Assembly: GCA_905178155.1 (NCBI GenBank)
Contig: CAJINV010000017.1
Span: 1,686,139 to 1,750,138, forward strand
Direction of reading: 5' to 3'
Length of the DNA: 64,000 bases
Origin: Amoebophrya sp. A120
Lineage: Eukaryota; Protista; Dinoflagellata
The position numbers and the translations under genes were made by a program. This document shows, one piece after another, positions 7,878 through 64,000 of the stretch. Numbering within the stretch: the first letter of the stretch is position 1; each line of letters begins with the position of its first letter. The notes under the pieces are model-generated. The model was not told where the DNA came from. It saw nothing but the letters and a program-made list of their open reading frames with translations, and made no database searches.

Positions 7878-10800
7878 TCATCTTGCGCGTCCCGCGCCTC
7901 CTTTCCCACCACCCAGCAGCTGATTTGCGTCCGCAGGTGGCGGCCTCGCGAAATTTTCTTCAAAAAAGAAAAACGCGTCGAAAATGTCCATGTCTTCCGC
8001 CTCATCGCCGACAAACAGGAAATATGAAAGCGCTTCACAAACCCCCTGCTTACCTCCTTTTTTTTTTCGCTTCCACAAGACAGATTTCGCTTCCACAAGC
8101 CAGATGATTCCACGTCCTCTAGGCAGAAGAGCTGCTTGATGGGGTGCAGCATGTTGTGATGCAAACTTGGGCTAAAACTAAAGGAAAAAGGCAACGTCTC
8201 GAATTGTGTTGAAGTTGATATGATGCCTTAGCCTTTCATCGGATCTGCATGACAAATTAGGTGGAGGTAGGACACTAATCGTGCACTCTCATAGCGACCC
8301 GGCCGCCGGGGCCAGAAAGTTGAAGCAGGAAGACGGTAGCATGTTGTCGCCGGACAATCCCCACTTTTCCGCCCCGCCGGGGGCCTCCCACCGGGTACCG
8401 TGAATGACAAGTCCCTCGCCCGCGCCAACTCCGCGGCGACCGAACACGCTACGGAGCTGCCGGACCTGCGTCGCCACTTCCCAGCTGACGACTTTCTCGT
8501 ATTTCCACGAGTGTAGCTGCATCGCCTCGCCGAACGGCCCGATCACATCCTTGAACAGGAAGCGGTGCTTTTCCGGGAAAACCAAAAAGTCCCGAGGTTT
8601 TCGGTAGGCCAATTGCAGTTTCTCGTAGTCGAGGAGCACGCGCGGCTGCTTTTCTCGCAACTCCGCGGTTGCTTCCCCGGTGTCAGCGTAACGAAATTGG
8701 TCGCTGCTGTCGACCATCCACCAGCCACCGCTCCAGGACTTGCCCTCGGCGGTGTCCAAATTTTGCGTGGTGGTTTGCGGCTGTTCGCTTCGCCCGATGA
8801 TGGCGGCGGAAAGGAACCGGTACAGACTCTGTATCAAATGTAAAAATGTCTGGGTCTGGAAGATTCATGCTGTTTTTGCATGACACGGAAGGTCTGGCAT
8901 GGAAGCTCTAGCATCACAGGTTTCGAGAAGCTTCCGCAATGCCGAACCCGCATGAGAAATCCCCCACTTTGGTGACAGAAAGTGGGCAGCTTTTGCTACC
9001 TATGCATGAGAGATTTTTCTGTGTTCGAAAATGCGCATCACAAGTTAGGATCCTTCCAGACCCAGACATTTTTGCATTTGATACTCTGCGTGTCCGCGCA
9101 ACCGACTTTGAACTTGAACGGAGGGGACATTTTCAGGCCGTAATGCAGCGTCAATTCCTCGTCCGAGATCTTCAAGTGCTTGTCGATTTTGCCAGGAAGG
9201 CTCAACTTCCAATAGTGAATCTCGTCGTAGGGGATGCTTCGCCACCTGGACCGCGAGCCTTGGGATATGCACGAGAAAAAGTGCGTCAGTGTAAGTCTGT
9301 GATGCGAACAATAAACATGCAAGTAGAGAGATGCGTCTGTCATGCTGGATATGGATTAGAGAATGAATCAAGTCGAGTAGCGAGCGCGCGTTTTGACGTC
9401 CTATCTGCGCAGGACATGAAGAGGTTTTTGCTTTTATACCGGATAGATTTGAAATGCTGTTCCACCAAGTGACACTTACACACGTGTTTTCTTGGATATG
9501 CGAGGTGAGCTGTGTGGAGGAGAAAAATGTTGACGCGGTGTTGTCATAGTCACGATGCAGGATGCGGAAGCTGGTAAACATATGGAACCGCCAGGAGGCT
9601 CGAAATTAATGACAAGAGTGAACAAGAAAGTAAGGACTTGCAATGCCGATGCATGAAAGGCAGCCAGGCACAGAGTGCCTGTCCTGCAGGAGTTGCAGTA
9701 GGGTCAGAGTCAGAGATGGACGAGCAGCCTGTGAAAATAAAAAATGACAAAAAAAGGTGTCTTTGTTTCCCCAAACAGCATCAGAGATTGGATTTAATAG
9801 GAGCGTCCGAAATTTGTGATGCGCAGCCTCGAGATTCAAGTTGGGTTTCCGATTGGTATCATCTATCTTATGCACTCCAGCAAATTATTTCAACTTTCTT
9901 TGTAGTCCATTTCGAGCACCATGACGCATCCATAAAACAGCAAGATGTCGTGCCGGTTCTGTGCGGTGAAGCCGAAGTGAATCTTTTCACCGGGAAGAAA
10001 CAGGTGCAGCCCAGGATTGTTCTTGTCGTTCTCGCCTCCGCTCGGAGTCGATTCCGTTCCTTCCAAGGTTCGCGCCATCAGAAGCTGCTTGACGGTTTCC
10101 GGTATCAAATGCATATATGTCTGGGTCTGGATGAAGATTCTGAGATTTGTCATGCAGTTTTTCCAAGCTCCGCTAAGTCTGGAATGCAGGGCCTAGCATC
10201 GGAGGATCTGCAGTCGCTTACCCTTTGTGATGCCTGTTCTGCATGAGAAATGCCCTGTCAGCATGACCAGAAATGAGCACCTTTTGCAAGTCACGCAACA
10301 CAGATTTTTGTATGATCCGCAACATGCATCACAAGTTCGCATCCTTCCAGACCCAGACATATTTGCAATGCATATCCGGCTCCTCCTGGTAGTACTGGTT
10401 TGCCAACCACGACTATCGCAAGAAAAAAGTCGTGTTGCAGTTCCACATTGTGATGCTGCAGGACCGGCATGACAGACAACCTTTGTCATGCGCAAAATGC
10501 TTGCGGGCTTGGCTTCATTCATGTTTTCCCGTCTGAGCTCTGCATTGGAAGATTTCTCTGATATGCAAAAAGAGTTTGTAATGTATTTTTGAAGTACATC
10601 AAGTAGTTCTTACAAACAAGTGTGTAACGGTAAAACTTTTTCCCCGGGATAACGACACTCCGGACTGAAACCAGCTGCTCCCCTGTTCGCACACGTGCTC
10701 GTTTTCTTCCACAATGCTCCGCCAGGTTTTCGTATCTTCTTTTGGCGGGGCAACGGCGCCCTTCTTTTCGGATACCCGCGTGAGCCGGAAGGACAAGTAA

Positions 10801-13800
10801 GCGTGTACGGCGATATTGAGAGGAAAAATGCCCCCTCCCCATATTGAAAACGCATTCGTCTGAAAATTTGTGATGCAGATCTGAGGTCACAAATCCTCTG
10901 TGTCTTGCAAGAAGGCAAAGCCAGAGAGTCCGCCGCATAATGCCGGCGGTTTGTGATGCTGTTTGGCTTACAGAGCCGACGTCTGTCATGCTAGTCCCCT
11001 ACGTCAAAACCCCTCGACCCAGGCTTGGCATATGCCTGCAGTCCTCTCCAGCAAGACAGACCTGATTTGTGTACGCAAATCCAGCATCAGAAACTTTGTT
11101 TCGATATGGGGAGGGGGGATTTTTCCCTTTGATAGGCGAGCAAGGACTCACTGCCCCGAAAATCGACCATCACTTCTCTCAGCCCGTTGTTGAAATCCCA
11201 AGCTCTTTAATCGCAGGAAAAAAAGTGGATCGTGTCAGTCTAACGAGTGCAAGCGGACGCGGTGCTGGTCTACGTAAATCTAATTCTTAAGTTCATTTTT
11301 TCATATAATATTGTCCAGAATTACATGCCAGACTACACCCAGCACACGTATCATGTTGCCAACAAGAAAGAATGACGTATGAAAATGAGTGTCCCTTTGA
11401 GGCAACGGAAACGGATTTGATTTCACAGGCTAGATTGTACATGATGTTGACAGTGAAAGGTTTTTTTTTTTCAGCTGCATGACTGAGCATGCAGGGGACA
11501 CGAGAGTGAGACAAATCTTCTGAATGTGTAGGAAATTACTGCGATGTAGTTGTCAGATGATATCTTCTAAAGGAGCGCCAGCAGTTCCGACAGTAAGACT
11601 GACGCAATACTTCCTACTTGTCGGATATCCCGCCGCTCTGCACTCGTCAATATTCGTGCACCATCCAGCGACCGAATTTGCAAATTGCAGCATTTGTCCT
11701 TCACGTTCGCGCAATCCCAGTTCCTGCTTGCTAACCTGCGTGGCTTGCTGCTCGCGTTGCTGCGTCATCAGCGCCTGCGCCCTGGCGGACTCGGCCTGCT
11801 GATGTTGATGCAGTTCTTTCCGAGCGGCCTCATTTGTCCCGGTTTTTCTTGCCGTCTTGTCCCGATGTTGAACGAGATTTTCTTGTTGTTCTCGGTTGTT
11901 CATTGCGATCGTGTTGTCCAACTCCATGAAAGCGTTTCTCAGTGCTGGCGGTTGCTTATGAGAGTGCACAACTCCCCCTTCCCCACATTTGTATAGCATG
12001 AAGATGAACAGCAAAAATTATACAAACACCAGAACACGTGGAGGCTACGCATGACAAATTTGAGTACCTAATGGAGTATACTGTTTCCGTTTGGGCTCCT
12101 TCCGAAATTGGTCATGCAAACAGTGCTACAAGGCAACGACTGAATTTGGCATTTTGCATCACAAATGGGGGGGAATGGGATTTGTGCAATGTCATATTGC
12201 GAAAGAGCATGACGCAGCTCCCGATCCTCATCTTGTCCTTCATGAGCTGGCGACGTATTCGCTACTAGGCCTGTCTGATCAACATCTTCATCCTCGTTTT
12301 TCAGTCCGCCGAGTTGCAGATAGGAGTAGCTCTGTGAGCCCCCCTCCAGAACTTCGGCCACCGATGTGGATACTAAAGAAATCGGCGAAACAGAAGTCGG
12401 GGTTGCGGCCACGATGCTGTCGCCAGTGCGTGGCTCGACCTCCGACGACAGCGGAGAAGTAAGTCCAGCACGGGCTGAAGTTGACGAACTTCGGGAAGAC
12501 GTAGACATTGCGCCCGTCAGATGATGCTCCAACGCAAGATCTTCTGCGTCGTGGTCCTCCGATGGTCGCAGAGTGCTGCTTTTCACCACGACGCCTGCAG
12601 AAGTAGTTGGACTAGCGTGCTTCTGGTTCTTGGCTCCATCGTGGTCTACGACAGCATCATGTTCCACCTCCTTAACCTCGCTGAAAGAGAGGAACGAAGA
12701 AGACACAAAAGCACCCAACAGCTGCACACCCTCTCCAAGCAACTCGAGTCCCGCACCAACTTCCCCTCCCCCGACCCCGTCATGTTCTGGATCCGGAGGA
12801 GGAATGTAGACGCCCGGCACGTATGAAATGCAAAAGTGTCTGGGTCTGGAAGAATGCAAGATTTGTCATGCATATTTCTCATGACCCATGATGCCTGTAA
12901 TCCTTGACCTAGCATCGCAGACTTTTAGAGGGCTTCCTGATGCACCTTCCACATGAGAAATACCCTGTCCGTGTAGCAAAAACTGTACCCCTCTTGCTAG
13001 TCATGCAATACAAATTTTTTTAGAGTCCAAAAACAGCATGACAAGCTGCATTCTTCCAGACCCAGACATATTTGCACTTGATAGCACGTCGGTGGACACG
13101 AAGAGTTCGCCCTCGCTATCGTAAGGAAAAATCCCCCCTCCCAATATCGAGATGAAGTATCTGATGCTGGATTTCCGTACATAAATGCGCGCTGTCTTGC
13201 AGTAAGGCATCGCAGCCAGAAGATCCTCAGCCTAGGTAGGGGCTTTGGGTCTAGTTGTTTCGCACTACAAACGGCTGGCCCCTAGGCCCAACAGCATGCC
13301 AAATCGCTTCCATATTAATGGCGCGAAAGCCTCTGCGCTTGTCTTCTTGCAAGACAGGCGTGATGTATGGTCTCAAGTCAGCAACACAAATTTTCGGAAT
13401 CATACCGTTTCGATATAGGGAGAGGGGATTTTTCCTTTTGATACTCGCCCCAGGGCAACACCTTCTCCGTCGCCGCCTTTTCGCGCAGCGCGAAGGACTG
13501 AATGGCGTTGTAGCCGTATGCAAGAAAAAAACTGTGTTAGTGTAACTCTGTAAGTAATGCAGAACATGCAACAGGTTTACACCTGTCATGCCCCATAGCC
13601 ATGAAGTCCTCTTTTCAACATGTGTGTTTTTCTTACAAGCCACGTATGACAGGTTTTCTCTGTCATGTAGACCGAATTTCTGATGCTGTCAGCCAAAGAA
13701 AGTTAGGTTCACACGGTTTTTTTCTTGCACAAGTCGATGGAAATGTACTGCTCGTTCCCGAGAAACCCGCCCAGCAGGTTTCCAAAATCCACGAGCTTGT

Positions 13801-16508
13801 TGCGCTTGATTACCAGGCGTTTATTCGTGAAGGCGAACATCCCGGTAGCGGAGTCGAAGGCCATGTCCACCGTTTCGCCGGCGTCGGGCGTGAGGAAATT
13901 GTCCAGCATGTCCTGCACGATAGATTTGTCCCGGATTCGAATGCCGTTGTCCAACTGCAAAAGCCAGTCGAAAAAGCCCCCGCTCTATCCAGGAAAAAAC
14001 ACCCATCCACATCCAATTTCTTTGTCATGCAAAACATACATTCATAAAATTCTTATTCTGTGTCTGTCATGCAAAAAATTATATATGGGGATGCGATGAG
14101 TTTTTTTCTGTGGATACGCTCGCCTGCTCCGCACCAGCCCCTCCCGCTTCTCCGTCCACCAACGCCAGCAGCTTGTCGCCCATCTTGGCCGCGGGCGCGT
14201 TGCCCAGGACCCGCCAGGATAGGAGGTGCGTGACCAGCAAGGGGCTGGTGCCCACGCCCCAGAGCGTCTCGTAGCCAAAGGTGGTGCCACCTTCCCCGCC
14301 CCCTCGGATGTTCAGGTGAATGGTGCGCGGGCCGTGCGTATGCATTGCAAATACGTCTGGTGCGTTTAGAGTTGTGATACCGGACAAAAACAAGACCTGT
14401 CAATGTAGTGGATAAATGCATTGGCCGATTCCTGTTCGTTGTTCTCAAGGGCAATTTGTAGTTTACAACTCCAGACGCAGTTTATTTGCCTGTGATAGTG
14501 CGACCCGTCCCCCCGGCTTTCGTAGATTTTCGTGTGAATCACCACGGTACTGTCCCAGTCGAGAAAGGAGCCCGGCGTGTGAAAGGTCCAGGCGCGGACG
14601 GCGGAGTAGAGGTAGGAAATGTAGTTCGCCTTGCCGCCCGTGAGGTGCTTCTCGAGCAGGTCGGGGACGTCCTGCTTGAGAATCCGGTAATTGGTAAAGA
14701 TCACCGCGTCGCGAATGTTGGTATCCAGGTCCACCGCCCCGGCCTCCGACGCCAGCGCGAGTTCGACCCGCTCGTCGTGCAGCAGTACCTTTTTCTCCCG
14801 CAAAATCGCCTGCGTACACGCCGGGTCCACCTGTTTCATGCCCGCCTTCCAGAAGAACAACTGCGTCGTGCTCAGGATCCCGCCGTTCCCGTTGTCGTGG
14901 CCTTTTTGCTTGAAATTTTCCAAGTCACACGGCTCGTGCGCGGCGGCGAACCTCTTGCTGAACCCCGCGGGCTCGGGCAGGTGGAGCGAGTTGGAGGCGA
15001 GCAGCCGCCAGGACAGAAAGTGGTGCAGTTCGAAGGCTTGCTTCACGTCCACGGAAACGTTAATTTGCCGACTGTCAGTTTCCGTTTCCAGGGTGAACTT
15101 GGAGTCCAAATCCAGCCGCGTTCCCACCGGCTCGCTGCACCAGGAAAGAACCGCCGACCACCGCATGGCGCTAAATTTGGTCTGCGGCTGCTCCGTGCCG
15201 ACGGTGTCTTTCCAATAGTACGGCCACCCTTCTTTGACGTTGATGTGCAGGATCTGTATGCAATGCAAAAGCATCGTATTAGTATAATTGCATTACAGAT
15301 TTCCTCAGAATGACAAATGCAATTTGTAATGCTGTTCTACCTTAGGAAGAAGAGTTGCAATGCATATTTGCAATTAGTACGAGTACGATACTTTTGCACA
15401 GAGTAATCTGCTCGCTGGTCCAAAACATGACGTCCTGGCCCGCGGACTGCTTATGGGAGTGTCAGGATTGAAATCGACAAACTTGAAATAACTTGCATCG
15501 CGTAAAATCGATACCAGATGCAAGCCCAGTTTCCTCCAAGCGGTGCATGACAAATTTCGAGACCTTCGAAATCCATTTTGTCATGCTGTTTAGGGACAGA
15601 CGGCGTCTGTTGTCGTGCTGCTTTAGCAGCTCTATCGCAGACCCCAAACAGGCCGACAGTCGGCCTCACTTGGCATCCCTGCAAGAGAGGCGCTTCATGC
15701 CTATGCCTTGCAATTTATGCATGAGAAGTTATTTCATTTTCAACGTTGTCGATTTCAATCCTGACACCCCCATACTTCTCGAAAATGTAGTGCAGTTTTT
15801 CGCCCCGGTCAAGTAATTTCCGGTAGTTCTTCGGGCCTGGCTGCGGGTCGTCATCGCCCGCGCGGCGCGCCTGCATCACGAGGAAAAACTGCTCCACTGC
15901 TTCTTTCTTCTCTTTCATCTTGTCCTGTGGGACGAGATCCCAGATCAACCCAAAGAATTTTCCAGCGGAAGTCAGCACGGATCCACGCAGGTTGCGTTTC
16001 TGAACATTTTGCGTTGGATCGTAGTCGTACCAGAGTTTGCGAATATCACTGTTTGAATATTTAAATTCACCGTAGAGATGAATATGCATCATTCAGATTA
16101 ACATCATCAATCTACAACTACCTCCTGCTGTGCTTGAGAAGTCGCCTGCTTGTTTTCCACGGCCTCATCGAGTCGCCCGATTTCGTGCTGCAACGCGAAG
16201 GCGAAAATGTAAATGGTACTCGTCGTAGTGGGCGGAGTTCGAGTTGGAACAATTCTTGCGCCGTGGTTGACCATCAGCTCGTTGTTCTGCAGCTTTCCTA
16301 TCGTGCTCTTGAATCGGGAAGTAGTAGTAGGGGTGAAAAAACGGAAATGCTCTTCGAGGGGAACAAGGTCGGAAAACAAAAACGCGCCGAGAAAAGCTGC
16401 GGCACAAGACTTCATGGTGAATGTCCAGAAAGCGGCTGCGCACATTGACGAGACCGTGGTCTGCCCAAGGGCAAGGCTCGACTTTGAGCCGCGACTTGAT
16501 AACATCAT
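7878..16508 (-). CDS. Multi-exon protein (~1,400 aa) with about five tandem bacterial-type PH (bPH_1/DUF1696-like) repeats
   Basis: Exons join in frame after removing TIR elements (e.g. ADTQS|LYRF, LLF|TSFRIL, PWGE|GELFVSTDV|PGVY). Repeats such as LLHDERVELAL..IRDAVIFTNYRIL..YISYLYSAVRAW..PGSFLDWDS and LFLPGEKIHFGF..DILLFTSFRIL..SIPYDEIHYW..PG match the bPH_1 pattern. Junctions near 11.2 kb and 16.1 kb and the start codon are uncertain. Confidence 0.7.
8023..8293. mobile_element. Degenerate introner-like intron (family B-like end)
   Basis: Right end GTGCACTCTCATA matches the family B TIR. Flanks GGAAA/GCGAC match poorly, but removing element+5 nt gives AGSL|FVGDEAED in frame. Confidence 0.55.
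8832..9083. mobile_element. Introner, TIR family A
   Basis: TATCAAATGTAAAAATGTCTGGGTCTGGAAG...CTTCCAGACCCAGACATTTTTGCATTTGATA; direct repeat CTCTG/CTCTG; frame restored. Confidence 0.92.
9266..9498. mobile_element. Introner-like intron
   Basis: TATGCACGAGAAAAAG...TTTTCTTGGATA; direct repeat TGGGA/TGCGA; joins LTS|QGSRSRW. Confidence 0.75.
9581..9934. mobile_element. Introner-like intron
   Basis: TATGGAACCGCCAGGAGGCTCGAAAT...ATTTCGAGCACCATGACGCATCCATA; direct repeat AAACA/AAACA; joins LLF|TSFR. Confidence 0.82.
10103..10374. mobile_element. Introner, TIR family A
   Basis: TATCAAATGCATATATGTCTGGGTCTGG...CCAGACCCAGACATATTTGCAATGCATA; direct repeat TCCGG/TCCGG; joins QEEPE|TVKQ. Confidence 0.9.
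10414..10651. mobile_element. Introner-like intron
   Basis: TATCGCAAGAAAAAAGT...ACTTTTTCCCCGGGATA; direct repeat ACGAC/ACGAC; joins GVS|WLANQY. Confidence 0.82.
10814..11134. mobile_element. Introner, TIR family F
   Basis: TATTGAGAGGAAAAATGCCCCCTCCCCATATTGAAA...TTTCGATATGGGGAGGGGGGATTTTTCCCTTTGATA; direct repeat GGCGA/GGCGA; joins SLLA|VHAY. Confidence 0.9.
11208..11627. other. Probable intron, degenerate introner; boundaries approximate
   Basis: AT-rich gap between coding blocks with a weak inverted match (GTCAGTCT near both ends). No clear direct repeat, and the element+5 rule is off by one nt. Confidence 0.4.
11957..12196. mobile_element. Introner, TIR family B
   Basis: TATGAGAGTGCACAACTCCCCCTTCCCCACATTTGT...ACAAATGGGGGGGAATGGGATTTGTGCAATGTCATA; direct repeat TTGCT/TTGCG; joins ALSQ|PPAL. 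Confidence 0.87.
12822..13083. mobile_element. Introner, TIR family A
   Basis: TATGAAATGCAAAAGTGTCTGGGTCTGGAAG...CTTCCAGACCCAGACATATTTGCACTTGATA; direct repeat GCACG/GCACG; joins STDV|PGVY. Confidence 0.92.
13117..13443. mobile_element. Introner, TIR family F (opposite orientation to 10814..11134)
   Basis: TATCGTAAGGAAAAATCCCCCCTCCCAATATCGA...TCGATATAGGGAGAGGGGATTTTTCCTTTTGATA; direct repeat CTCGC/CTCGC; joins PWGE|GELF. Confidence 0.9.
13517..13731. mobile_element. Introner-like intron
   Basis: TATGCAAGAAAAAAACTGTGT...ACACGGTTTTTTTCTTGCACA; direct repeat AGCCG/AGTCG; joins YISI(D/G)|YNAIQSF. Confidence 0.85.
13986..14116. mobile_element. Introner, TIR family E
   Basis: TATCCAGGAAAAAAC...GTTTTTTTCTGTGGATA; direct repeat CGCTC/CGCTC; joins EQAS|GGFFDW. 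Confidence 0.85.
14339..14497. mobile_element. Introner-like intron
   Basis: TATGCATTGCAAATA...TATTTGCCTGTGATA; direct repeat GTGCG/GTGCG; joins DGSH|GPRT. Confidence 0.82.
15257..15405. mobile_element. Introner-like intron
   Basis: TATGCAATGCAAAAGCATCGTA...TACGATACTTTTGCACAGAGTA; direct repeat ATCTG/ATCTG; joins SEQI|LHIN. Confidence 0.82.
15452..15774. mobile_element. Introner, TIR family C
   Basis: TATGGGAGTGTCAGGATTGAAATCGACAA...TTGTCGATTTCAATCCTGACACCCCCATA; direct repeat CTGCT/CTTCT; joins IFE(K/Q)|SAGQ. Confidence 0.9.
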
Positions 16509-17305
16509 CAAGCTCCTTTCGGTCAATGATTTTTTCGTACTATACTTTGTAATTTCGGTACGTGGAAAAATGTGCAGGATTTCTTTATTTATTAGGATAT
16601 TGTAGTGTACAAGATCACAGGTAGGATTTAGAATTTCAATTTTTATTTTACTTTTACAAGATAAATTTAAATATACAATTAGCAATTTCTCCAAGTGGTT
16701 CTAGCATTTGCATTGCGGTATGATGTTCATGGTAGGATAGGATTTGAATTTCGTCAAAAAACCAAGTTGTCGTGTCTTCCTATTTTCAATTAGATCAATC
16801 CTACTGGTGCGCTGGTTGTAAGTAATTGCTGAAGTGTTAGAATGTTGCGTGGGCGCGAATTTGCAATCCCACCAAACGTCGAAGCCACCAAACGTCGAAG
16901 CAGGAGTCCACTGACTCCTGTTTAACATCATGAGCACGATACGAAAGAAAAATCTGTTTTTGTTGACTTTTTCCATTTCGCCCACGAATAAAGCTTCACG
17001 AAGACGACAGACACCCCAACGAGCGGGAAAAAGTAAATAGAAGATGATGCGACTTGTTCCAGCACGATAATCTTCTTGTTCACAACGAGTCAGTAGTTTT
17101 GGTGCTGTCAATGCAAAAAGCCCACGAGCAATGAGAGACCATCGACATTCCGGCGCGTCGATCAATGCGAAGATCTGTTCGGAAAGCAAAGTCATGCAGA
17201 TGCCCGGGCCATCAAGTCGTAGACAGTACACAGGCATCATCAATGTATTGTGATTGCAGATACAACCATACATCGCACCGAGGCAAGATCTTGAACTTGA
17301 TACTG

Positions 17306-17346
17306 ATACGCCGCGGGTGCTCCTGTCCGAGAACAACGACAAAGAG
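17306..17346. repeat. 41-bp dispersed direct repeat, copy 1
   Basis: ATACGCCGCGGGTGCTCCTGTCCGAGAACAACGACAAAGAG. Confidence 0.9.
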
Positions 17347-17933
17347 ATCTTTTGCATCCAAGATTTCTTGGCACAGATTTGAATGCTGTTTAGCCCTTCG
17401 GAGTAGATTTGTCATGCGAAATAGCTTGATTGTCTGGCTCTGGCGGCTTGAGGTAGTTTTGCGCATGACACATCCATGGAACTACATTTGAGAAGGTAAC
17501 CGATTTGAGAAGCTGTACTTATCCCATACAGCAGGAACAGGTCCTGGTGTCACCTGCCGTCCCATCACCGAGAGGTCTTGCGGCTGCGCTGCAGCGGACG
17601 AAGACGAGAGATGAACATGGCCGCTTGTTGTCCCGGCGTGCTGCAACGTCGTGCTCGAGTCAACAACACCTTGTTGTTGATTTGATACCAAGGTCGTGCG
17701 ACGCGTTTCCCTTGCGGTCATTAGCCGCTCGCCAACGCGGGCGAAGGAGCTAGCCGAACTTTTGCTGTAAGACGGCCCCTATGGACTGCGCGGGCGGAAA
17801 GTGGCGGTGCCGTGGACAGCGAAGATCCGGGTAGAGCCCCTTGATGGCCGCTGGTAGAAGAGCCAGCCCCCAGTTGTAGGGGGCCCCGGTGGTGCTGACC
17901 CCCCGTTCTGTACCCCTCCTTGCGGTTAGCCCT

Positions 17934-18023: not shown

Positions 18024-18639
18024 ATTGTCCATGTCCTTGTCCATGTCGTATGCAGATTTCGTAGATTTTGTAGAATTGTAGAACGCGACGAGGACGTCGC
18101 GAAGTGCGAGCATGACGGTTATGAAGAAGTTGCGCGGGCGAAGGGTGGAAACGTTGCATCGAAGACGATGTTGATAAGACTAAGTACGGAAGTCGAAATC
18201 ACGACGCGACGGCAGAAGCGCAGCAGGGGCACAGGTGTTTCTGTTTTTTGTTTTGTAGCATCCGATCAGATTTGTTTTTCAACCGCTGATGGAAAAAAAA
18301 ATTTGCACATGCAGACGAATCGCTTGTAAAAATCATTTTCATTGTGAACGGATGCTACAAAACAAAAAACAAAACGTCAGGTGGTTATGTGTTGAACGAG
18401 GACAAGCGGTTGAGGTGTGGGGTCGCAATGCAAAATGCAAGAGCACGGCGTTACATCAAGAAAAAAAAGCATGAACTTCAATAAATTGCTGAACGTGCTG
18501 CGCAGACCGAGCTTTTGCCTTCATGAAAAAGATAAGTAGTTGCAACGCAGCACGCAGAAATATCGAGAAACAGAGCGAAGCAATACACTTGCAAGAAGTA
18601 AACCGCGAGCGCCAAAGATGGCAAACAAACGCTTTGACC

Positions 18640-18680
18640 ATACGCCGCGGGTGCTCCTGTCCGAGAACAACGATAAAGAG
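18640..18680. repeat. 41-bp dispersed direct repeat, copy 2 (1 mismatch)
   Basis: ATACGCCGCGGGTGCTCCTGTCCGAGAACAACGATAAAGAG. Confidence 0.9.
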
Positions 18681-19468: not shown

Positions 19469-19595
19469 GGTCGCTTGTCACGTTGCGAAATGCCCCATGC
19501 GGCGCAGGTCACGTTGCGAAAATAATCTCTCATCAGACTAGATCACGCCACCTGTCCGACTAGATCACGCGAAAATGATCTCTCATCAGACCACT

Positions 19596-19636
19596 ATACG
19601 CCGCGGGTGCTCCTGTCCGAGAACAACGACAAAGAG
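19596..19636. repeat. 41-bp dispersed direct repeat, copy 3
   Basis: Identical to copy 1; preceded by short duplications (GTCACGTTGCGAAA x2, GACTAGATCACGC x2, ATCTCTCATCAGAC x2) at ~19477-19591. Confidence 0.9.
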
Positions 19637-50700: not shown

Positions 50701-53700
50701 CCCCTCGACGCCATAATGTTGAAATCGAAACACGGACAACTTCCTGGATGATTTGCCCTCTTGCAAGAGAGGCACGACTTGTGACGACCACACTTCACCA
50801 GCATCACAAATTTTCGGCAGCTGCATCCCGCTTCATCAATATGGGCGGGAGGGGGGCGAACAACTTTTTCCTTGCGATAACCAGGGTGACCCGATCCTCG
50901 TAAATGTTCGTTCCCTGCAGCAGCAGGTCGTCGACAATGCACTGGTTGATCAAGGAATCTCCCGTCTTCAAATTCCCAAAAGTCACGTTCGAAGCGTCTG
51001 CCCCGCCGTAAATGATCTGGGTTGGGAACAAAGCTTCCGTATTGTTGCAGGTGGAGGAGCCGGCAGACCCGATATTTGTTCCATCGTAGTACAAGTGCAT
51101 CCCCGCATCCTCGGAGAGCGCGTAGTTCTTCCTCTGCAGCTCGTACGTGTGGTCTGCGTCACCTAGAAAGTCGTCGCTGATCAAGACGTGCTGCGTGTAG
51201 GTGCCGTTCTCGTTGAAGGTAGATTTGAATTGGTCGTCGAGGAATCGTAACCCCTCAAAGTGTAAATACCCCCGCTCCTTTTTGAAATCGGTCACCTCGC
51301 TGCAGTCGTTTGTGGCGTCAGGTACACAGTTACAAATCGTGTAGATCCCCCCGGCAACAAGTTGCTGCTTGTCGTCCACTGTATCGTACCCCAAGCCCTG
51401 GTAGTCCCACTGCGCACACTTCGACGGGCCGACAAGCAAAGGGGACTGTCCGAACATCTATCCCCGTCTCAACTGTTGCATTCTCAACTGTCAAACGAAT
51501 TTCAATTTGTGATGCTAAACCCACCAGAGCCACAAACTATTAAATGGCTTTGCGATGCAACAATGGCAAAAGGAAAAGTGAAAGACCTTGTGCGTCTTGC
51601 ATCACAGATTTGGCACAGATCAGCAGCCTGTATGGCTCTTCGAGAATTTCGATGTGTCATGCAAAGCAGCTTGATCGTATCGATTCTGATTGTAATTTTG
51701 CATGAGAAATGATTTTGTAACAGTTGAGAATGTAACATTTGAGAATCCCATAACGTCATCTGCTCGGTCGTGTTCAGATACGCACCGGATTTTTGCTTCG
51801 GAAACATCCCGCAGGTCTGCTTCCCGTCTAGCAGCAGCACCAACCCCTGGTCGGGCTGCGTCCGGTTTTGGAATTCCTTCAGATCGTACTCCCCGCCCAG
51901 TTCCTTGCCGAAAGTCCACGACCGAAGTAGGCAGTAAGGCGCGGTGGCGAGACAGGTTTGCACTTCGATGCTAGGCCCGGTGGTGTTGAACCGAAGAACC
52001 ACTTCGTACTCCCGCCTAGTGCTGCTTGCCAGGTGCGTGTTCAGCTTGTAGCAGACCTCGTAGTAGTTTTGTCTTTCCCGGGTGGTCGACCTGGGGAGCG
52101 CCACGTTCTTCCACAAAACGTGCGAGCTGTTGGATGCGGAAATTTGCGCGTGGGTCAAGAGACTTGTCAGGTAGCTGTCGATGTCGTGACAGTCCTGCGT
52201 AATCAGAAATTCGTCGTCCTTCGTTGCCGTGTGTGCGTAATCCCAGTAGTGCATCGTGATTTCAATGTCGATTTTGGTGTCTAGACCCGCGTTGATGGAT
52301 TGCACAGAATTCACGTTCGGGTAATTGCTCGCCGCAGGGACGACACTTCCTGTCGGCGCAAACACATCCACCCGCATCGGGCCCCGGATGTCGATTTTCG
52401 TCAGCTCCCAGGCATCGTAGCCCGTTCTGTCCTTCGTGCTGTTGAAGTAGTTGTACGGGTTTTCCCAGCAGATTCTGTACTCCCCAGCAAAGTTCGCCGT
52501 GATGTATGCAATAGAAATTTCATGCAGGAGCTGCACACGTATTTACAAAATGCGTCACGCATAAGGTCACCGACTTCTTCTAGCACGCCACTTCTTGTCA
52601 TACTGAATAGGATTTTTGAAGGAAAGTCAAAGTGTTACCGTGCACAAAAAGCTGCATTTGTTTTTGTACGTACGTGTACGGCATCAATAAAATCAATCTA
52701 CTGTTGATAGGATGTCTGTAAAGACCAGAAGTGTCCCAGAACTGCTTTCCGCTTGGTAGTAGTCCGTCAAGTACTTCCTGCCGAGAATTTTTTCCCTCGC
52801 CGGGTCTGTACCGTCTATCGCCAATTCGTCCGTCGCGGTGTTAAATTTTCCACCTGCCGTCGCATTCGACTCGCAAGTGACCGGCAACGTCACTGACTCC
52901 AGCCACAAATTGTTGGTAGCAAACGCGTCCGTCAATCCGTAGCCGGTCACCTCCACCCGAAACGTTTCCCGCATCCTCGGCTTGTGCTCCGCCGGGATTA
53001 TTGAAGCGTTGTTCACACCGTGAATGTCCAAATGCCGCACCGCAAAATCCACCCCGGTCTGCAGTCCGGCGACGCACAAACTGTACTCCCCCGCCTCTGT
53101 GTCCGCCGGAATGTTGACGGGCAACAGTTGGTGGACGACCGTGAAATTTTGGTTCAGCATCCACGCGCCCCCGTAGACCGAGTCGTCCCAATCGGACGTG
53201 TTGAACGACCACGGGGTGGCAAGTTGCGTCCCGTTGGCGGCAAGGGAAAGCGCTAGGGAATTCACCGTTGAATCAAACGCGGCGCCGACACCGGTTTCGG
53301 CTGCGCAGTACCCGTACGTGTCAGCGGAATAGTACGTCGCTGGTGTTGTGCTTACTGCTGGGTACGCGCCACTACTACACCTGGAATTGTTGTGTGTCGT
53401 GCTGTTCCGCAAGACCAAGCGGAGCGAATTCACGTCGAGATTGGTCCCCTGCAAGATCAGATCGTCCACCCGGCAGTCGTTGACAAACTCAGTGTTGTCC
53501 TCTACTAGCGACGCGGTGTTTTCGCAATGCGTCTTCGACGCGGATCCGACCTCGTTATTGGTGTACACGCCGGTGAACGCGTAGTTGTTGCTGTTGATGT
53601 CTGTGGTTAACAGACCACCGCCGGTCAACGTATAGGAGGTACTGTCGACAGCTGTTGTAGTTCCTGTAGTTGTGTCGTTTGCAGAAGAAGAACTTGAGTC

Positions 53701-56700
53701 CGCTGGTGTTAAAAACCGCGGCCCTTCGAAGTGTAGGTATCCCCGGAACTCTTTGAAATCATTCAACGCTCCGCAACTCCCGACTTGGCAGTTGCAAATT
53801 GTGTAGATGCTTCCCGCGTTCACCATACCGGTGTCGTTTTCGTTCCCGTACCCCCCGGACAAATAAGAACTTTCCAAATCCAGCACCGTGCAGGGCCTCG
53901 GGCCCACCACCATCGCGTCGACGTTCGTTGTCGTCAGAGCGGCACTGTCAAATTGCCCACAGGTTTGCTGCCCGGGAGCGATTACCCACAAGCCGCGGTC
54001 TTTCGTGCTGCCAAAAGCGGATAAGCCGGAAACGGTGTACACTGCCTTTTCGAAGGACAGTTGGTGAAAAACACACTTCGCGTCCTCAAAGCCACACGTC
54101 TGGATGTTCAACTGCGAGCCGGCCAAGGCGCTGGAATCGGCGATATCGATTAAAACGGTGGCGACTTGAACCGAGGACGTGACGGTCAAGTTAGCCGAAG
54201 AAAGAAACGTGGTCACGGTGCTGTCCTGAAGGATTAAATTTGTGATGCTGGCGGACATGGTGGCCGAGGACAAACTGTCGTTCGTCGCGGCTTGGAAACT
54301 GGTCAAAATCGAGTTCGCAGAGGCTTGGGGTGCGATGATCGTGAAAACAGTGGTTGCAGATGCCGTTGTTTGCGCCAGTTGCCGCCTTGTTGCAGAAGGT
54401 GGTGGATCTTGTTGCTTTCCTTTTTTGCCTTTGATGTCTTTCCCCTTTTTATTCATCTTCCCGGAGGTGCCTTTGTGTTCTTGAGATAATTGCTGAAGAT
54501 CTCCAACTTCTTCTTCTTCTCCCAACAGTCTCCTCGAGATTCCGCTCCACGTGAAAGAGAACGTCGTCGAAACCCCATTTTCGCCACTGCTGCTGGTGCA
54601 ATTCCCCACGTTGCTGAAGGTTCCTGCTTCTATCAACGGTGCACAGGCGACTTCCTTCACGGCCACTTCCAGCGCATTCTTCAAAGCGACCTTCTCCCCG
54701 GCGGAGAGAGAATCCGGGTAATTCAACGAATTCGAAAACGTCGACTCCGCCTTGGCCGTGGTAAACGCCACGTTGGTGATGTTGAAACTGGCCAGCGTTG
54801 TGAAGACCCCGTGCTGCAGTTTGTAGCAAAGCTGGTATTCGGTAACGGAAGCGGTTTCCGCGAGCCCTTTATCGATCGACACTTGACTCCAAACAACCTC
54901 CTGGATCCGGTCGCTGTAGGGGTTGTTCACGTTCGTGGACGCGGACGTGTTTGTTAACACTTGCACCCCGCCAGCCGCGGTGAATACATAGGGCTGGACG
55001 CCCCCGGGGTAAGCGCAGTCGGGTGTGATGAGAAATTCGTCCGTGGTACTGTCGTAAGCGAAGAAAGAAAGCCGGATATCCAACAAATTTGGGTTCAGTG
55101 CGTTCGCCGCGGTGAGCAACAGCGAGCTCGACACATCAAAGTTGTCATGCGCAGAGGTCGTGGATGAGCTCGAACTACTCCCCGCGGGGGCCCCGCTCGA
55201 CGGCGTGAAAAAGTCCACCCGTAGCGGCCCGCGCACTTCGAACTCTGTGAGTTGAAACGTCTGCTCCACTGGGTTAGAAAAGCTGGACAGGAAACACAGG
55301 TGGTACGTGCCCGCGAAGGGGACGGCTAAGTCGGTGTACTGCAGGACTGTGTCGGTCGAGGCGGCGGTGTTGATGAAATCACTTGTCAAATAAACCCGCC
55401 CCAGAACGTCCTGTTTCAAGCTGTCGACCGGGTTCAAATACAGCTTCGAACTGTTGAACTGGGCCAGGTCCGCAGTGCTGTTAAAGTTGTTCGCAAAGTA
55501 CATTTCGTTGTTCATGCAGCTTTGGTTCCCGGACTCGATCCAAAACCTGCCGTCGCGGGAAAATTCGGTGATGTTTAAACCGTTGCCCAGAATTTGAATG
55601 CTGAACTTTTCCGTGATCTTCGGGCTGCTCGGCCCGTTCGGCACGGTTGTCGTGTACTGCATACTCGCGCTGTTCACTCCGTGAATATCGAAGTTGGAGA
55701 TAACGTACTGCTGACCGCTGAACCCGGGGAGGCAAAGCGCGTACTTCCCGCCATTATGAAATGCAAATATGTCTGGGTCTGGAAGAATGCAAGCTTTGTG
55801 ATGCAGGTTTTCCATGACCCATGAGGTCTGGAATGTGAGACCTGGCATGACAGATTCTTTGAGGTCTCTATCATGCCTTTCCTGCGTGAGAAACTCCCTC
55901 TCAACTTGGTCAAAAGCGGACAGCTTTTGGCACTCACGCAACACAGATTTTTGATTTTGCATCATTCAGATTTAGCATGACAAGTTCTAATCTTCCAGAC
56001 CCAGAGGACATTTTTGCATTTGATACCCATTCAAAGTCGACGATACTTGGTATGTGAAGCGGACCCCATCGTTCACCGTGTACTCCAAATCCGAAAGAAA
56101 ATAGGCCGCGCCGGAGTAACTGCTTGTCGGATTCACCACCGCAGCGTCAAACACGTTCACGTGCTGTGGGATCATCCAGAAGGAGGGGGCCAGGGAGGAG
56201 GTCACTTGGGTGCCGAAGGGGGGCAGACGGAGGAAATGGGGCGTATCGTCCGGGCACGTATCGGAATTCTGGAGCGCGGAGACCGTGTAGAGCGTGCCAT
56301 TGTAATTCGTTGTCGCAACTTGTTGCGCAAGCGTGCCGCCGGAGCTGCTGACCGCGGTGTTTGCGCAAATCGCATTGTCGTAGTGGAGACCAGACGCCGT
56401 TTCGCGGTTGACCACCGTCATGGTAGGGCTGTCCGCCGTGAGATTTGCGGTCTGCAGGTTCGTTCCCTGAATCTCAACACTGAAGGAACAGGCCAGGGAA
56501 CCGGACCTCTATGCACAGTAATTAATTTACCGTACAACTACCCGTACAAATTCTGCGCCGGCTTCTGCGGGACAAATGTTAGTTACGCTTCGACCCTCGT
56601 CTGCAGACGCATGAGAAGTGTTTCTGATTCTACTTTAAGATGGCGGAAAAATTTAAGTATTGTCATGCATTTTGTAGGTGGTGTACGGAAAATTTGTAAA

Positions 56701-59700
56701 TTGCATAGCCGCTGTGACCAGGCGCCGTCACTGAACTCGAAGAATCTGGAGGGCTGCGGCATGGTACAGAGGTTCGTGGGGATTGCCTGAAAAGAGGAAG
56801 AGGAGGTGAAAGCTAGACCACTACTTGGCAGCGCCCGATTCACCACCCCTGTTGTGCTGCTACCACCCTCGTACGTGGAAAGCGCCCCTGGGATTCCGGT
56901 TCCTGAAGAGGAGAACCGCGGCCCCTCGACGTGAACGTACCCTTTCGTCACCGAAAAGAAGTCGCTGCGTCCTGTGGAAAAACGTCCCCGCTCCAGAGTC
57001 AGCATGGGAATGCTGCTGCGGAAATCAACAAGCTTTGGCTGTTGCGTATGACAAGATCAGAGGGCTTGCAGTGTAATCGGGTATAGCTAGCGCAGCCGCC
57101 TCTTCTTCATACTACATCGAGCATCCTATTCTCATGCTGGAGTCACAAACTGCCAGACAGCACTAGAGAATGCTCCTCTTCCTCATGGGACGACGCAGGG
57201 CAAACATTTGAGGCTTGCGGATTTGCATGACAAGTCTGGGGTGCTGGGGACGTTTTTTTTACACAGGATACGCTGCTCGTCAGACTCTTCGTCGTTTTCG
57301 TTTCCGGGCTGCAAATGGTGAAGATACTCCCCACCGGAATGCGGTTTGCCCGTTTCAGGTAAAAAACCCGGTCCGTTGCTTCCTGCGTGCTCGCGCCGAT
57401 TTGCGTGTAGACCCGGCAGCGAGCAGAAGTGTCAGTCGTCAAAAAGCTGTAGTCGAAGCCGAGGCAGTTGGCCGTGCTCTCACACATGGCGGCGCAGGCA
57501 GTGACGGCTGGTGTTACAGTGGTTTTCCTTCTAGTTTTTCTTTCCCCGGCGATGAATGAAACATGATTTTATTGAAATCATGTTCATAGGCACGCAGAGG
57601 CAGACGCGTGGTCGACGTTCATTATCATTTCATACTATTACTAGACCTATTCCTGAAAAAATAAAAAGCAACAAAAAGAAAAAAGTCATTTACACGTCGC
57701 CGGATCTGCTCTGGCGCAGATCCACCCGTTCTCCACAATTTGGTCTGTGCACCGGACGTGCTCCAAGTACCCTCGTTGCGCCACAAACGGCATATAGTCA
57801 TGGTTCGCCGCCGTTCTTCCGCCGCCGATCGCCACGGCCGGCCAATCGTTGGCCGCGACGGTCGACCCATAGACCTTGTGGGAAGGCGTCGCCGTGAAAC
57901 CCGTCAAGTCATTGCACGATTTTTTCCCGACGACTAACGGGTAGGGAAAGTAGGTGTTTGTTACCGCTGAAGTATTCATTGTCGCACAATCCACAACTCC
58001 GTCGAAGAGCTTGATCAGAGCAGAATCCGGCGAGGAGGAGGAGAAAACGTCGTCTTCTACTGCGCTAGAAGTTGCACTGGAAATACTGCCCGTCGTCTGT
58101 TTTGCGGTGTAGAAATCTTTCTCGACCGCTAGGTCCCGCAAAACACACGCTTCCACAAACCCCGGCGTCTGATCGCCGGCGACGCAGGTGATGATTTCCA
58201 ACCCGGCTTGCTGTCCCGTCAGCTATCCTATGTAAACACGTCGTCCCGACCACAAAGTCATAGTGGGGATCTCGCAACACAAACTCAGCAGCCTGGGGAG
58301 TCACGCGTGACAAGCTTCTCTTCGTAGTGTAGTGCAGTTTAGCAATGACAGCCACATCAGAAAGCCATCTCCTTTATGCTGATTTTTACAGCATTACAAA
58401 TTCCGAAACACGTTTGAAAATTTCTCTCATATTGATGGGCATGTGCAGCACAATTCTCCCTGTAGCTGCACATCAGCGTGACAACTCTGAGGTGGGAACT
58501 TTTTTACACAGGATATCAGCGTGAAATTCCCGATCTGCTCGAACGTCCCGTTTGTCGCCAGCGAATTGCGCCTATGGAAGTGTCAGGATCGAAATTGGAA
58601 AAGTCGAAAGAATTTGCAATGCATAAAGTCGATGCCTCCAGTTGGGCCTGCAGTTGCCTCCAATGGGCGCATGACAAATTTTCCTGGCCTCTGAAGCAAG
58701 TCTGTCATGCTGTTTCGGGCAAGACGAGGACCCCCCCTGTCATGCTAGCCTGCAGCCCATCAATTCTTGCTCATGACCAGCATTACAATCTGCCTCCCTA
58801 CTTGTGTCCTCTGCAATGGGAGTCCGTCTTTGCGTCGCATAATTTTATGCATGGCAAATTATTTCAACTTTGTCGATTTTGAACCTGACACATCCATATC
58901 GCCAGCAGATTTCGTAACTCCGCTCCCCCCTCGCCAGCTTCACGTTTGCGAAGCTGATCGTCGTGGTGTTTTCCGCCAGTTGCTGGCCCGTCTGAGCGAC
59001 CACCGTCGCATCCGCCTGGCTGGTCAGGATGCCGCCTCGCGGGTGCAAGTAGGATTCCACGTTGGAGCAGTCGTTGGCGATCAGAATCTCGTCACCATAA
59101 GTTGCTGTTGACGAACTGTCCCACCCGACAAAGTTGATGTTCAGTGTGAAGGAGGACGCGGCTGGGAAGGACAAAGTAGGGGTAGTACTAGGAGAAGCAG
59201 CACCGGAATATGATGCGACGGACGCAGGAGGAACAGCGGCGTCAAATTGAAGTGAAATCCCCTGTGGGCCACGGATGTCGAATGTTAGCAGAGATTCCAC
59301 GGTGGTAACGTTCGGGAGTGAAGAGGTAGATGAACTGGACGAAGTGCCAGTACTGCTGCTAGCACCTCCTCTTGTGCTGTTCTGCGGGTTGAATTGGGTC
59401 ACCTTGATTTCAAACCCGTACAACTGCAGTCCCTCCAACGTGGATGTTGTTGATGGTGCTCCATCTTGCTGCGCCGGCTTGAAAGCGAAGAAGTTCCGGG
59501 GGCCCGCGTTTGCAAGAGAACCCGGTACCGCGATCCAGGGGGAATATTTTCTCGGCTCAGAGCCTGAAACATTAAACGCCTCAAACGGAACGAGAATCGG
59601 GTCACCGAAGGCAATTGACGCTGCTGCGGTCGTCTCAGGGGTTGAAGTAGTTGCGGAACTACTAGCATTCATCCCGTCCTCCGTTTCATTTGACACGTTG

Positions 59701-63923: not shown

Positions 63924-64000
63924 GCTCTGTATTTTACTGGTCTCTCATCTCCAGCATCCTCGCGCTTGTACGTGGCCTCACGGGCTTTTTGTTTTTTTTT

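What the first reader, a model, noticed from the sequence alone, without database searches (positions are those of the whole stretch)
8023..58898. A rule-governed system of TA...TA, TIR-bounded, non-GT-AG introns (element plus one 5-bp direct repeat removed)
Seen: 29 resolved insertions in two genes share one grammar: 5-bp direct repeat, TA-starting TIR, interior, TIR ending in TA, 5-bp direct repeat. Three have one mutated terminal TA. Removing the element plus 5 nt restored the frame at every one. Sliding within the repeats never gives GT-AG; one can be GC-AG (58573) and two GA-AG (38124, 45358). Known: non-canonical TIR/direct-repeat introners are described in Amoebophrya, but to my knowledge their excision mechanism is unresolved. 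Inference: these are MITE-like insertions removed precisely by a pathway that does not read standard splice dinucleotides.
Basis: partly seen in the sequence, partly recalled or inferred. Interest (0 to 1): 0.9.

Follow-up and report, generated by a model that had tools for sequence, protein, structure and literature searches.

The report
Amoebophrya transposon introns, fixed cut register
Two genes of the plankton parasite Amoebophrya A120 are interrupted by 34 small transposon-like inserts without normal splice signals; this intron class is already published, but where the transcript could be checked each insert plus five bases is missing, likely always cut one base before and four bases after it, a testable clue to a splicing mechanism that is still unsolved.

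Summary
Observation confirmed; class already known. The window is Amoebophrya sp. A120 (an exon is 100% identical to its annotated protein). The inserts are the introner elements of Farhat et al. 2021 (PMC7789003). I count 34, not 29: 16 in a 1,420-aa PH-domain gene, 18 in a 12,612-codon frame. Likely-RNA contigs lack element plus 5 nt at 9 junctions directly and 7 more by exact contig arithmetic; annotated proteins agree at 4 more. Fourteen rest on reading frame. A DNA-like run keeps the elements. In-frame GT-AG pairs lie near 15 of 34 and are not used at the 9 testable. Imperfect repeats leave one common cut, after repeat base 4: intron = N-TAT...ATA-NNNN. The lower bound rests on one junction. 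Families occur in both orientations, and removal holds where the repeat has decayed to 2 of 5. A remodelled spliceosome is likeliest (about 0.5), a protein cut-and-ligate system next (about 0.25); neither is shown. The scan reached the same rule before on other DNA of this genome (unreviewed); five paper searches did not find it stated.

The parts
7868..16508 (-). Gene 1, 1,420-aa protein with bacterial-type PH domains (PF08000); 16 elements and one GT-AG intron (16000-16121)
   Evidence: Model equals annotated A120 protein P0001 letter for letter for cuts after repeat base 3, 4 or 5; Pfam. Low coordinate taken from the stop-to-stop frame list.
20800..63944 (-). Giant gene: one open frame of 12,612 codons after removing 18 elements and 5 GT-AG introns; repetitive, likely secreted or surface protein (start codon not determined; low coordinate approximate)
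   Evidence: 3' part in one 5,639-nt contig; partial annotated pieces P0005, P0011; environmental relatives colinear across junctions
8023..8293 (-). Element, repeat decayed to 2 of 5
   Evidence: Contig joint skips 276 = element+5; cut after base 4-6
8832..9083 (-). Element, perfect repeat
   Evidence: Contig joint skips 257
9266..9498 (-). Element, 1 mismatch
   Evidence: Contig joint skips 238; cut after base 3-5
9581..9934 (-). Element, perfect repeat
   Evidence: Contig joint skips 359
10103..10374 (-). Element, perfect repeat
   Evidence: Contig joint skips 277
10414..10651 (-). Element, perfect repeat
   Evidence: Contig joint skips 243
10814..11134 (-). Element, perfect repeat
   Evidence: Contig joint skips 326
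11209..11627 (-). Old element, repeat 2 of 5, 3' end ATT, no predicted terminal stem
   Evidence: Removal of 424 fixed by contig arithmetic and P0001; in-frame GT-AG versions (415, 406) miss by 9 and 18; fold
11957..12196 (-). Element, 1 mismatch
   Evidence: Contig arithmetic and P0001
12822..13083 (-). Element, perfect repeat
   Evidence: Contig arithmetic and P0001
13117..13443 (-). Element, perfect repeat; opposite orientation to its relative at 10814
   Evidence: in-frame GT-AG (element+2) available and not used
13517..13731 (-). Element, 1 mismatch, 5' end TGT
   Evidence: Contig arithmetic; P0001 needs cut at or after base 3
13986..14116 (-). Element, perfect repeat
   Evidence: Contig arithmetic and P0001; in-frame GT-AG (element+2) not used
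14339..14497 (-). Element, perfect repeat
   Evidence: Contig arithmetic and P0001
15257..15405 (-). Element, perfect repeat, 5' end TAC
   Evidence: P0001
15452..15774 (-). Element, 1 mismatch
   Evidence: P0001 needs cut at or after base 3
20843..21192 (-). Element, repeat 3 of 5
   Evidence: Contig joint skips 355; cut after base 2-4; in-frame GT-AG (352) not used
21626..21782 (-). Element, perfect repeat
   Evidence: Contig joint skips 162, in the same contig as four GT-AG introns
32465..32685 (-). Element, 1 mismatch
   Evidence: Frame only
32722..32894 (-). Element, perfect repeat
   Evidence: Frame only
33939..34147 (-). Candidate old element, repeat 1 of 5
   Evidence: Frame only; GT-AG intron 33917-34106 also restores frame
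38124..38375 (-). Element, perfect repeat
   Evidence: Frame only
38434..38712 (-). Element, perfect repeat
   Evidence: Frame only
38817..39092 (-). Element, perfect repeat
   Evidence: Frame only
45358..45466 (-). Element, repeat 3 of 5, 5' end TAC, holds one in-frame stop
   Evidence: Frame only; GT-AG version 45357-45467 not excluded; mismatches at bases 4 and 5 make it the best single test junction
50226..50378 (-). Element, perfect repeat, 3' end ACA
   Evidence: Frame; relative P0007 aligns across
50680..50879 (-). Element, 1 mismatch
   Evidence: Frame; relative P0006 aligns across
51459..51752 (-). Element, 1 mismatch
   Evidence: Annotated piece P0011 needs cut at or after base 3
52505..52709 (-). 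Element, mismatch at base 5
   Evidence: Annotated piece P0005 needs cut at or before base 4; kept whole in DNA-like run X1
55755..56025 (-). Element, mismatch at base 5
   Evidence: Frame; relative P0004 aligns across
56510..56707 (-). Element, repeat 3 of 5
   Evidence: Frame; relative P0004 aligns across
56968..57270 (-). Element, perfect repeat, 3' end ACG
   Evidence: Frame; relative P0004 aligns across
58224..58515 (-). Element, perfect repeat
   Evidence: Frame; relative P0004 aligns across
58573..58898 (-). Element, mismatch at base 5
   Evidence: Frame; relative P0004 aligns across
21377..23023 (-). Four ordinary GT-AG introns of the giant gene (21377-21587, 22004-22205, 22344-22517, 22838-23023); a fifth lies at 57508-57693
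   Evidence: Four contig joints; the fifth from frame; all donors start GTA

Best explanation
These are the published introner elements of Amoebophrya sp. A120: short inserts with TAT...ATA inverted ends and a 5-base flanking repeat, likely non-autonomous DNA transposons, which are missing together with five bases from likely-RNA contigs and are likely cut out of the pre-mRNA in a fixed register by a remodelled spliceosome. Shown: anatomy, organism, removed length (16 junctions in contigs, 4 more in annotated proteins), retention in a DNA-like run, both orientations tolerated. Inferred from imperfect repeats: the 5' cut lies one base before the element and the 3' cut four bases after it, so the mRNA keeps repeat bases 1-4 of the upstream copy and base 5 of the downstream copy and the pre-insertion message is restored exactly at any target site. 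Inferred mechanism: the element's own ends are the signal. N|UAU is taken as a donor with a free first base, the paired or protein-bridged ends bring the far end close, and the acceptor is measured 4 bases past AUA instead of being read as AG; the invariant A at -7 is a candidate branch point. Confidence in class and RNA-level removal about 0.9, in the fixed register about 0.75, in the spliceosome as the catalyst about 0.5.
For: Organism. End motif TAT, 7 bases, AAA as published for A120 (exact in 16 of 34 5' ends and 20 of 34 3' ends). Removed length equals element+5 at 9 of 9 element joints listed and sums match two contigs exactly (1929 and 772). Register: 8023 allows cuts 4-6, 9266 3-5, 20843 2-4; P0001 and P0011 need 3 or later, P0005 needs 4 or earlier. 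All nine commonest A120 non-canonical end pairs in Table S4 start with NT, as a cut after base 4 predicts. Under the rule +2 is T in 34 of 34, +3 is A in 33, -7 is A in 34, +1 is uniform (9, 9, 8, 8), and all 6 ordinary donors start GTA. A25 elements start TTA plus two purines and its commonest ends start TT, again T at +2 and A at +3 (my inference). Terminal triplets differ at 7 of 204 sites against 26 of 170 in the repeats (Fisher p = 7e-5; 1.3e-3 without 5 CpG-type changes). A120 has U2, U4, U5, U6 and most spliceosomal proteins but no detected U1 snRNA, while a GT-AG-using relative has U1. A U2-type spliceosome removes TIR-derived non-GT-AG introns in Fritillaria.
Against: No lariat, branch point or spliceosome dependence was tested. 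T at +2 and A at -7 could simply reflect a conserved transposon end, and my search for elements was partly keyed on TAT. There is no preference for G at +1 and AG ends only 3 of 34. The donor would be buried in stems with z down to -14. G-U versus A-C mismatches in the arms show no strand bias (22 vs 20, 39 vs 35, 59 vs 63, 33 elements), so selection on an RNA stem is not shown. The bound 'cut at or after base 4' rests on one joint (8023; shorter side 28 letters, two runs of one sample). Only 15 of 40 joints were shown, X3 and X4 are RNA by guess plus controls, and the annotation may derive from the same RNA. Fourteen of 34 elements have no transcript evidence.
Confidence: 0.5

Rival explanations
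1. Same elements and same register, but removal is by a protein-only cut-and-ligate system (structure- or end-specific endonuclease plus RNA ligase) that makes a staggered cut 1 and 4 bases outside the terminal stem.
For: Signals are symmetric and work in both orientations (10814 vs 13117, 9581 vs 15452, 12822 vs 38817). First, last and second-last intron bases are free. Nearby in-frame GT-AG pairs are ignored at 9 of 9 testable sites. Euglenid non-conventional introns with paired ends are excised as circles without lariats and are thought to use a different machine.
Against: Three old elements with no better-than-shuffled folding (8023 z 0.7, 20843 z 0.3, 11209 z -0.1, the last with no terminal stem) are still removed exactly. 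No candidate enzyme was looked for. The register coincides with donor positions +2 and +3.
Confidence: 0.25
2. Spliceosomal or other RNA-level removal, but with no single register: the cut slides within the repeat from element to element, as the 2021 paper describes (variable sites relative to the hairpin).
For: 18 of 34 repeats are perfect and uninformative; most informative junctions allow three positions. Farhat et al. state that sites relative to the hairpin are variable.
Against: Every informative junction (8023, 9266, 11209, 13517, 15452, 20843, 51459, 52505) is compatible with one position, and Table S4 ends all start NT.
Confidence: 0.15
3. Programmed or transposase-driven excision from the DNA (like ciliate internal eliminated sequences) in the transcribing stage.
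For: TA-containing ends; exact scarless junctions; the DNA-like run was laid only on 45000-59600 and its life stage is unknown.
Against: X1 contigs run unbroken through 45358, 52505, 56510, 56968 and 58224, and none of its 8 listed joints is an element+5 deletion, though 52505 is absent from an annotated transcript model. Elements and GT-AG introns are missing from the same contig. Contigs drop rare variants, and X1 may be the window's own source.
Confidence: 0.04
4. Reverse-transcriptase template switching across a hairpin with direct repeats makes false introns; the genes are broken or the elements are retained.
For: Hairpin plus direct repeat is the classic setting for this artefact (recalled). 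All RNA evidence is cDNA-derived.
Against: Removal is exact where the repeat is 2 of 5 (8023, 11209) or 3 of 5 (20843) and folding is no better than shuffled. Keeping any one element shortens the frame in 31 of 31 tested. Environmental relatives align across the junctions.
Confidence: 0.03

Closest known systems
Introner elements among the non-canonical introns of Amoebophrya sp. A120 (Farhat et al. 2021, PMC7789003; abstract, passages, sections 11, 12, 16, supplement text parts 1-3 of 5; figures not visible)
   Same: Same strain; inverted ends starting TAT, 7 bases, A-run; direct repeats of 3-5 nt (5 bp in the Fig. S19 legend); RNA-validated non-GT-AG ends; repeated families; mechanism stated as open.
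   Different: The paper calls sites variable with no clear signature; here one register (1 before, 4 after) fits all informative junctions, the repeat need not be intact, and a shared internal motif is noted. Figs 3, 4 and S19-S25 could not be seen and may already show part of this.
A120 introners in Gozashti et al. 2025 (PMC12130899; passages)
   Same: Diverse TIR introners, tens per gene; some A120 TIR elements carry integrase-like frames, a plausible source of 5-bp target duplications (my inference).
   Different: Passages read deal with mobilisation and transfer, not the cut position; no autonomous partner was found in this window.
Non-conventional introns of euglenids (PMC12501133 passages and section 5; PMC11282704 section 6)
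   Same: TIR-paired ends, slidable direct repeats, no GT-AG, coexistence with ordinary introns, longer unpaired tail on the 3' side.
   Different: Their motif is CAG near the 5' end and CTG at -8; excised products are known to be circles; different lineage.
Fritillaria borealis non-canonical introns (10.1101/2025.08.15.670264 passages; PMC11282704 section 6)
   Same: MITE-derived TIR introns dominating a genome, removed by a U2-type spliceosome with altered selectivity.
   Different: They have preferred ends (AG-AC, AG-AT) and U1 is kept; here +1, -1 and -2 are free and U1 snRNA was not detected.
Introners of Polarella, Symbiodinium, Micromonas and Aureococcus (10.1101/2020.10.14.339549 passages; PMC11282704)
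   Same: TIR transposons removed scarlessly with one target duplication; some classes work in both orientations.
   Different: They supply or recruit G(T/C/A) and AG; these need neither, so any target site is tolerated (phases 14, 9, 11 of 34).

Membership tests
Amoebophrya A120 introner elements | Located in the A120 genome | tested here: met
   Exon 100% identical to P0001, named Amoebophrya sp. A120; P0005 and P0011 likewise
Amoebophrya A120 introner elements | Terminal inverted repeats starting TAT, 7 bases, then A-run | tested here: met
   TAT intact at 31 of 34 ends on each side; full motif in 16 and 20 of 34; published motif
Amoebophrya A120 introner elements | Direct repeat of 3-5 nt at the exon/intron borders | tested here: met
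   5-nt repeat, mean identity 0.85, perfect in 18 of 34
Amoebophrya A120 introner elements | Absent from transcripts with non-GT-AG ends | tested here: met
   16 of 34 in likely-RNA contigs, 4 more in annotated proteins; 14 untested
Amoebophrya A120 introner elements | Repeated families | tested here: met
   Relatives at about 65-75% identity inside the window; very high summed contig depth over elements in X1
Amoebophrya A120 introner elements | Assignment to one of the paper's 1,954 families | not testable with these tools
   Family profiles are not held
MITE (non-autonomous TIR transposon) | Short, TIR-bounded, no transposase | tested here: met
   109-419 nt, too short to encode one
MITE (non-autonomous TIR transposon) | Target-site duplication shown by an empty site in DNA | tested here: inconclusive
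   No empty allele seen; the spliced message and colinear protein relatives stand in for it
MITE (non-autonomous TIR transposon) | Autonomous partner with the same ends | not tested
   Whole genome not held; 10 window proteins had no transposase family in Pfam
U2-type spliceosomal intron | GT-AG (or GC-AG) ends | tested here: not met
   0 of 34 GT-AG at any slide; none GT-AG or GC-AG under the inferred cut
U2-type spliceosomal intron | Lariat with branch-point A; dependence on U2, U5, U6 | not testable with these tools
   Only contigs of the relevant runs are held
Euglenid non-conventional intron | CAG near the 5' end and CTG at -8 | tested here: not met
   Ends read N-TAT and ATA-NNNN; motif
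Euglenid non-conventional intron | Excised as a circle without lariat | not testable with these tools
   No excised RNA seen
Ciliate TA-bounded internal eliminated sequence (features recalled) | Removed from DNA leaving one TA | tested here: not met
   A 5-nt repeat copy, not TA, is left; DNA-like run keeps 5 elements whole; other life stages untested

The most novel reading that the evidence does not exclude
A120 has a second, non-spliceosomal mRNA splicing machine that reads transposon ends (TAT...ATA) in either orientation and cuts 1 base before and 4 bases after them, making tens of thousands of insertions invisible to the protein at any target site; the shared internal TGT(C/G)ATGC motif marks the substrate.
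Probability: 0.25. Interest if true: 0.9.

Novelty: already known. Interest (0 to 1): 0.45.

Why it matters
More than 60% of A120 introns are non-canonical and the paper that described them left the mechanism open. A fixed register turns 'variable splice sites' into one rule with sharp predictions: where lariat branch points or cut-end chemistry must fall, which bases matter (TAT...ATA, not the repeat), and how to annotate the genome (the giant gene is now held as partial pieces). If the rule holds, it explains how a transposon family can invade exons at any site and in either orientation without changing a codon, and it points either to the most relaxed spliceosome known or to a new splicing enzyme.

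Tried and rejected
No whole genome was held, so no genome-wide test or transposase search. Second read lay (45000-59600): X3-X5 had almost no cover, so junctions 45358, 55755, 56510 and 58573 stayed unresolved; this is not evidence of silence, and it served as the control that X3-X5 are not plain DNA. No listed holder is on record as RNA. Protein searches for a long giant-gene product (000 residues only) and for a piece across 45358 found nothing. Strand bias of G-U versus A-C pairs: none. Rfam: no match. First readings of 11203-11617 and 20839-21193 as ordinary introns were dropped once contig lengths and P0001 showed old elements there. A bulge-helix-bulge substrate was considered from recall and set aside: the repeats are direct, not complementary; not computed. 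Uneven mismatch counts along the repeat (3, 4, 9, 3, 7) were not pursued. A TIR-like pair at 3146-3453 has no repeat and was left out of the count; two strict-scan hits (9869-10115, 16644-17069) were left out because one overlaps confirmed elements and the other lies outside the coding frame, at the chance level. Place look-up of earlier findings gave nothing.

Full report
What is there. Scans for inverted ends with flanking repeats and gene modelling give 34 inserts of 109-419 nt, all inside coding exons of two minus-strand genes: 16 in gene 1 and 18 in a giant gene. Each reads 5-nt repeat, TAT, arm, interior, arm, ATA, 5-nt repeat. A strict version of this grammar gives 25 hits against 1.97 expected (max 6 in 100 Markov sequences), and flank identity peaks at 5 nt (0.85 against 0.20-0.41). 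Repeats are perfect in 18 of 34, have one mismatch in 10, and more in 6. One element (33939) is ambiguous with a GT-AG intron. Six ordinary GT-AG introns share the two genes. Keeping any single element shortens the frame in 31 of 31 tested (11209, 20843 and 21626 were not in that test).

Organism and genes. An exon of gene 1 is 100% identical to a 1,420-aa protein named Amoebophrya sp. A120, with bacterial-type PH domains. My model with all 16 elements removed reproduces that protein letter for letter if the cut is after repeat base 3, 4 or 5, and not for 0-2. The giant gene becomes one frame of 12,612 codons. The public annotation holds partial pieces of it (P0005, P0011), and environmental relatives at 25-57% identity align across seven element junctions.

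Are they removed, and from what. Contigs of X3 and X4 (one sample; RNA by the tool's guess) skip exactly element+5 at 9 of 9 element joints among the 15 joints shown, out of 40. One 5,639-nt contig skips two elements and four GT-AG introns together, which marks it as spliced RNA. Piece coordinates fix seven more: one contig has 1,929 bases before 14498, equal to the sum from 9935 with ten elements removed (start at 9935 inferred from contig overlap), and another has 772 bases after 12197, equal to 747 plus the 25-letter side of the next joint. Annotated proteins add 15257, 15452, 51459 and 52505. So 20 of 34 have transcript-derived support and 14 rest on frame, 7 of those with aligned relatives. 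On 45000-59600 run X1 covers every bin, keeps five elements whole, and shows no element+5 joint among its 8 joints, while X3-X5 have almost no cover.

GT-AG is not used. Frame alone cannot tell +5 from +2 or +8. In-frame GT-AG pairs lie within 12 nt of both ends at 15 of 34 elements. Nine of these have transcript evidence (9581, 10414, 11209, 13117, 13986, 15452, 20843, 21626, 51459) and all nine show element+5, including three where G-TAT...ATA-G would give a GT-AG intron of element+2. Contigs show the main form only.

Where the cut is. When the two repeat copies differ, the transcript tells which copy was kept. Counting in transcript direction, the joint at 8023 allows cuts after base 4-6, 9266 after 3-5, 20843 after 2-4. 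P0001 (at 15452, 13517, 11209, 8023) and P0011 need 3 or later; P0005 needs 4 or earlier. Only a cut after base 4 fits all: intron = N-TAT...ATA-NNNN. The upper bound has two supports, the bound at 4 rather than 3 only one joint (shorter side 28 letters). Outside support: all nine commonest A120 non-canonical end pairs in Table S4 start with NT, although mapper conventions could contribute. With +1, -2 and -1 free, about 64 end classes result, which would explain why the paper saw no signature (inference).

What is read. Under the rule +1 is uniform (9 C, 9 A, 8 G, 8 T), AG ends 3 of 34, +2 is T in 34, +3 is A in 33 and -7 is A in 34. Terminal triplets differ at 7 of 204 sites, the repeats at 26 of 170 (p = 7e-5), with the caveat that the search was partly keyed on TAT. 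Removal is exact with repeats of 2 of 5 (8023, 11209) and 3 of 5 (20843), so the offset is a distance, not homology; these three also fold no better than shuffles (12 shuffles each). Related elements sit in both orientations, including pairs with transcript support (10814 and 13117; 9581 and 15452), so the signals lie in the symmetric ends. Arm mismatches show no G-U bias on the transcribed strand. The motif TGT(C/G)ATGC or its complement occurs 58 times in 8,434 nt of elements, 3 times in 40,559 nt of exon and never in 1,081 nt of ordinary introns; a transposase or adaptor binding site is a guess.

Mechanism. I favour a remodelled spliceosome (0.5): the register lands the element's T and A on donor +2 and +3, matching the GTA start of all 6 ordinary donors; A25 elements start TTA plus two purines; A120 keeps U2, U4, U5, U6 and most proteins but no U1 snRNA was detected, whereas a GT-AG-using relative has U1; Fritillaria gives a precedent. 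The invariant A at -7 is a candidate branch point; the pattern is post hoc and weak. A protein endonuclease-ligase (0.25) fits the symmetry and free end bases and has a parallel in euglenids. Sliding cuts (0.15), DNA excision (0.04) and cDNA artefact (0.03) follow. No step of catalysis was tested.

What is known. Farhat et al. 2021 (PMC7789003) described these elements in this strain: inverted repeats starting TAT, 3-5-nt direct repeats, 29,850 repeated introns in A120, RNA-validated, mechanism open (supplement text parts 1-3 of 5 and a search of it; figures not visible and may bear on the register). I read passages of PMC12130899, PMC12005148, PMC11282704 (and section 6), PMC12501133 (and section 5), 10.1101/2025.08.15.670264 and 10.1101/2020.10.14.339549. 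Five full-text searches showed no paper stating the register or reporting excised products for Amoebophrya; subscription journals are mostly not covered. I noted the rule; the look-up then showed unreviewed notes of this scan reaching the same rule on other pieces of the genome.

Verdict. Real, confirmed, and already known as a class. The value lies in the register, the tolerance of decayed repeats and of both orientations, and named test junctions. Interest 0.45.

Noticed in passing
window 20800-63944 (-): One frame of 12,612 codons after intron removal, built of long internal repeats, with a signal-peptide-like hydrophobic stretch at residue 735 of the frame and a weak YHYH match. The annotation holds at least two partial pieces of it; relatives occur in environmental contigs.
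   Followed up: partly
inside the elements, e.g. window 38124-38712: Motif TGT(C/G)ATGC / GCAT(C/G)ACA shared by unrelated element families, 58 copies in 8,434 nt, both orientations, often 33-50 nt from an end. A search of the supplement text for 'motif' showed no mention in the passages returned.
   Followed up: partly
window about 17305-17350, 18640-18685, 19596-19640: Three near-identical copies of a roughly 45-nt sequence between the two genes; two likely-RNA contigs end at 19600 and 18644, at the edge of a copy. A 318-codon frame (18521-19477) between them has no Pfam match; no Rfam match.
   Followed up: partly
window 8832-8865 and 10291-10374: Raw RNA reads of run X9 (82 reads at one joint) carry ends of this element family joined to foreign flanks, with no reads on the exons: a related copy elsewhere appears unspliced or comes from DNA in that run.
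   Followed up: no
window 3146-3453: TAT...ATA pair with matching arms but no flanking repeat, outside the two genes; possibly an old insertion.
   Followed up: no
window 11205-11628 and 20839-21193: Two old elements have one canonical end under the rule (AT-AG and GT-TG), which may be drift towards ordinary introns.
   Followed up: no
window 18239-18374 and 2993-3090: Short inverted repeats outside the modelled coding exons that do not have TAT ends.
   Followed up: no
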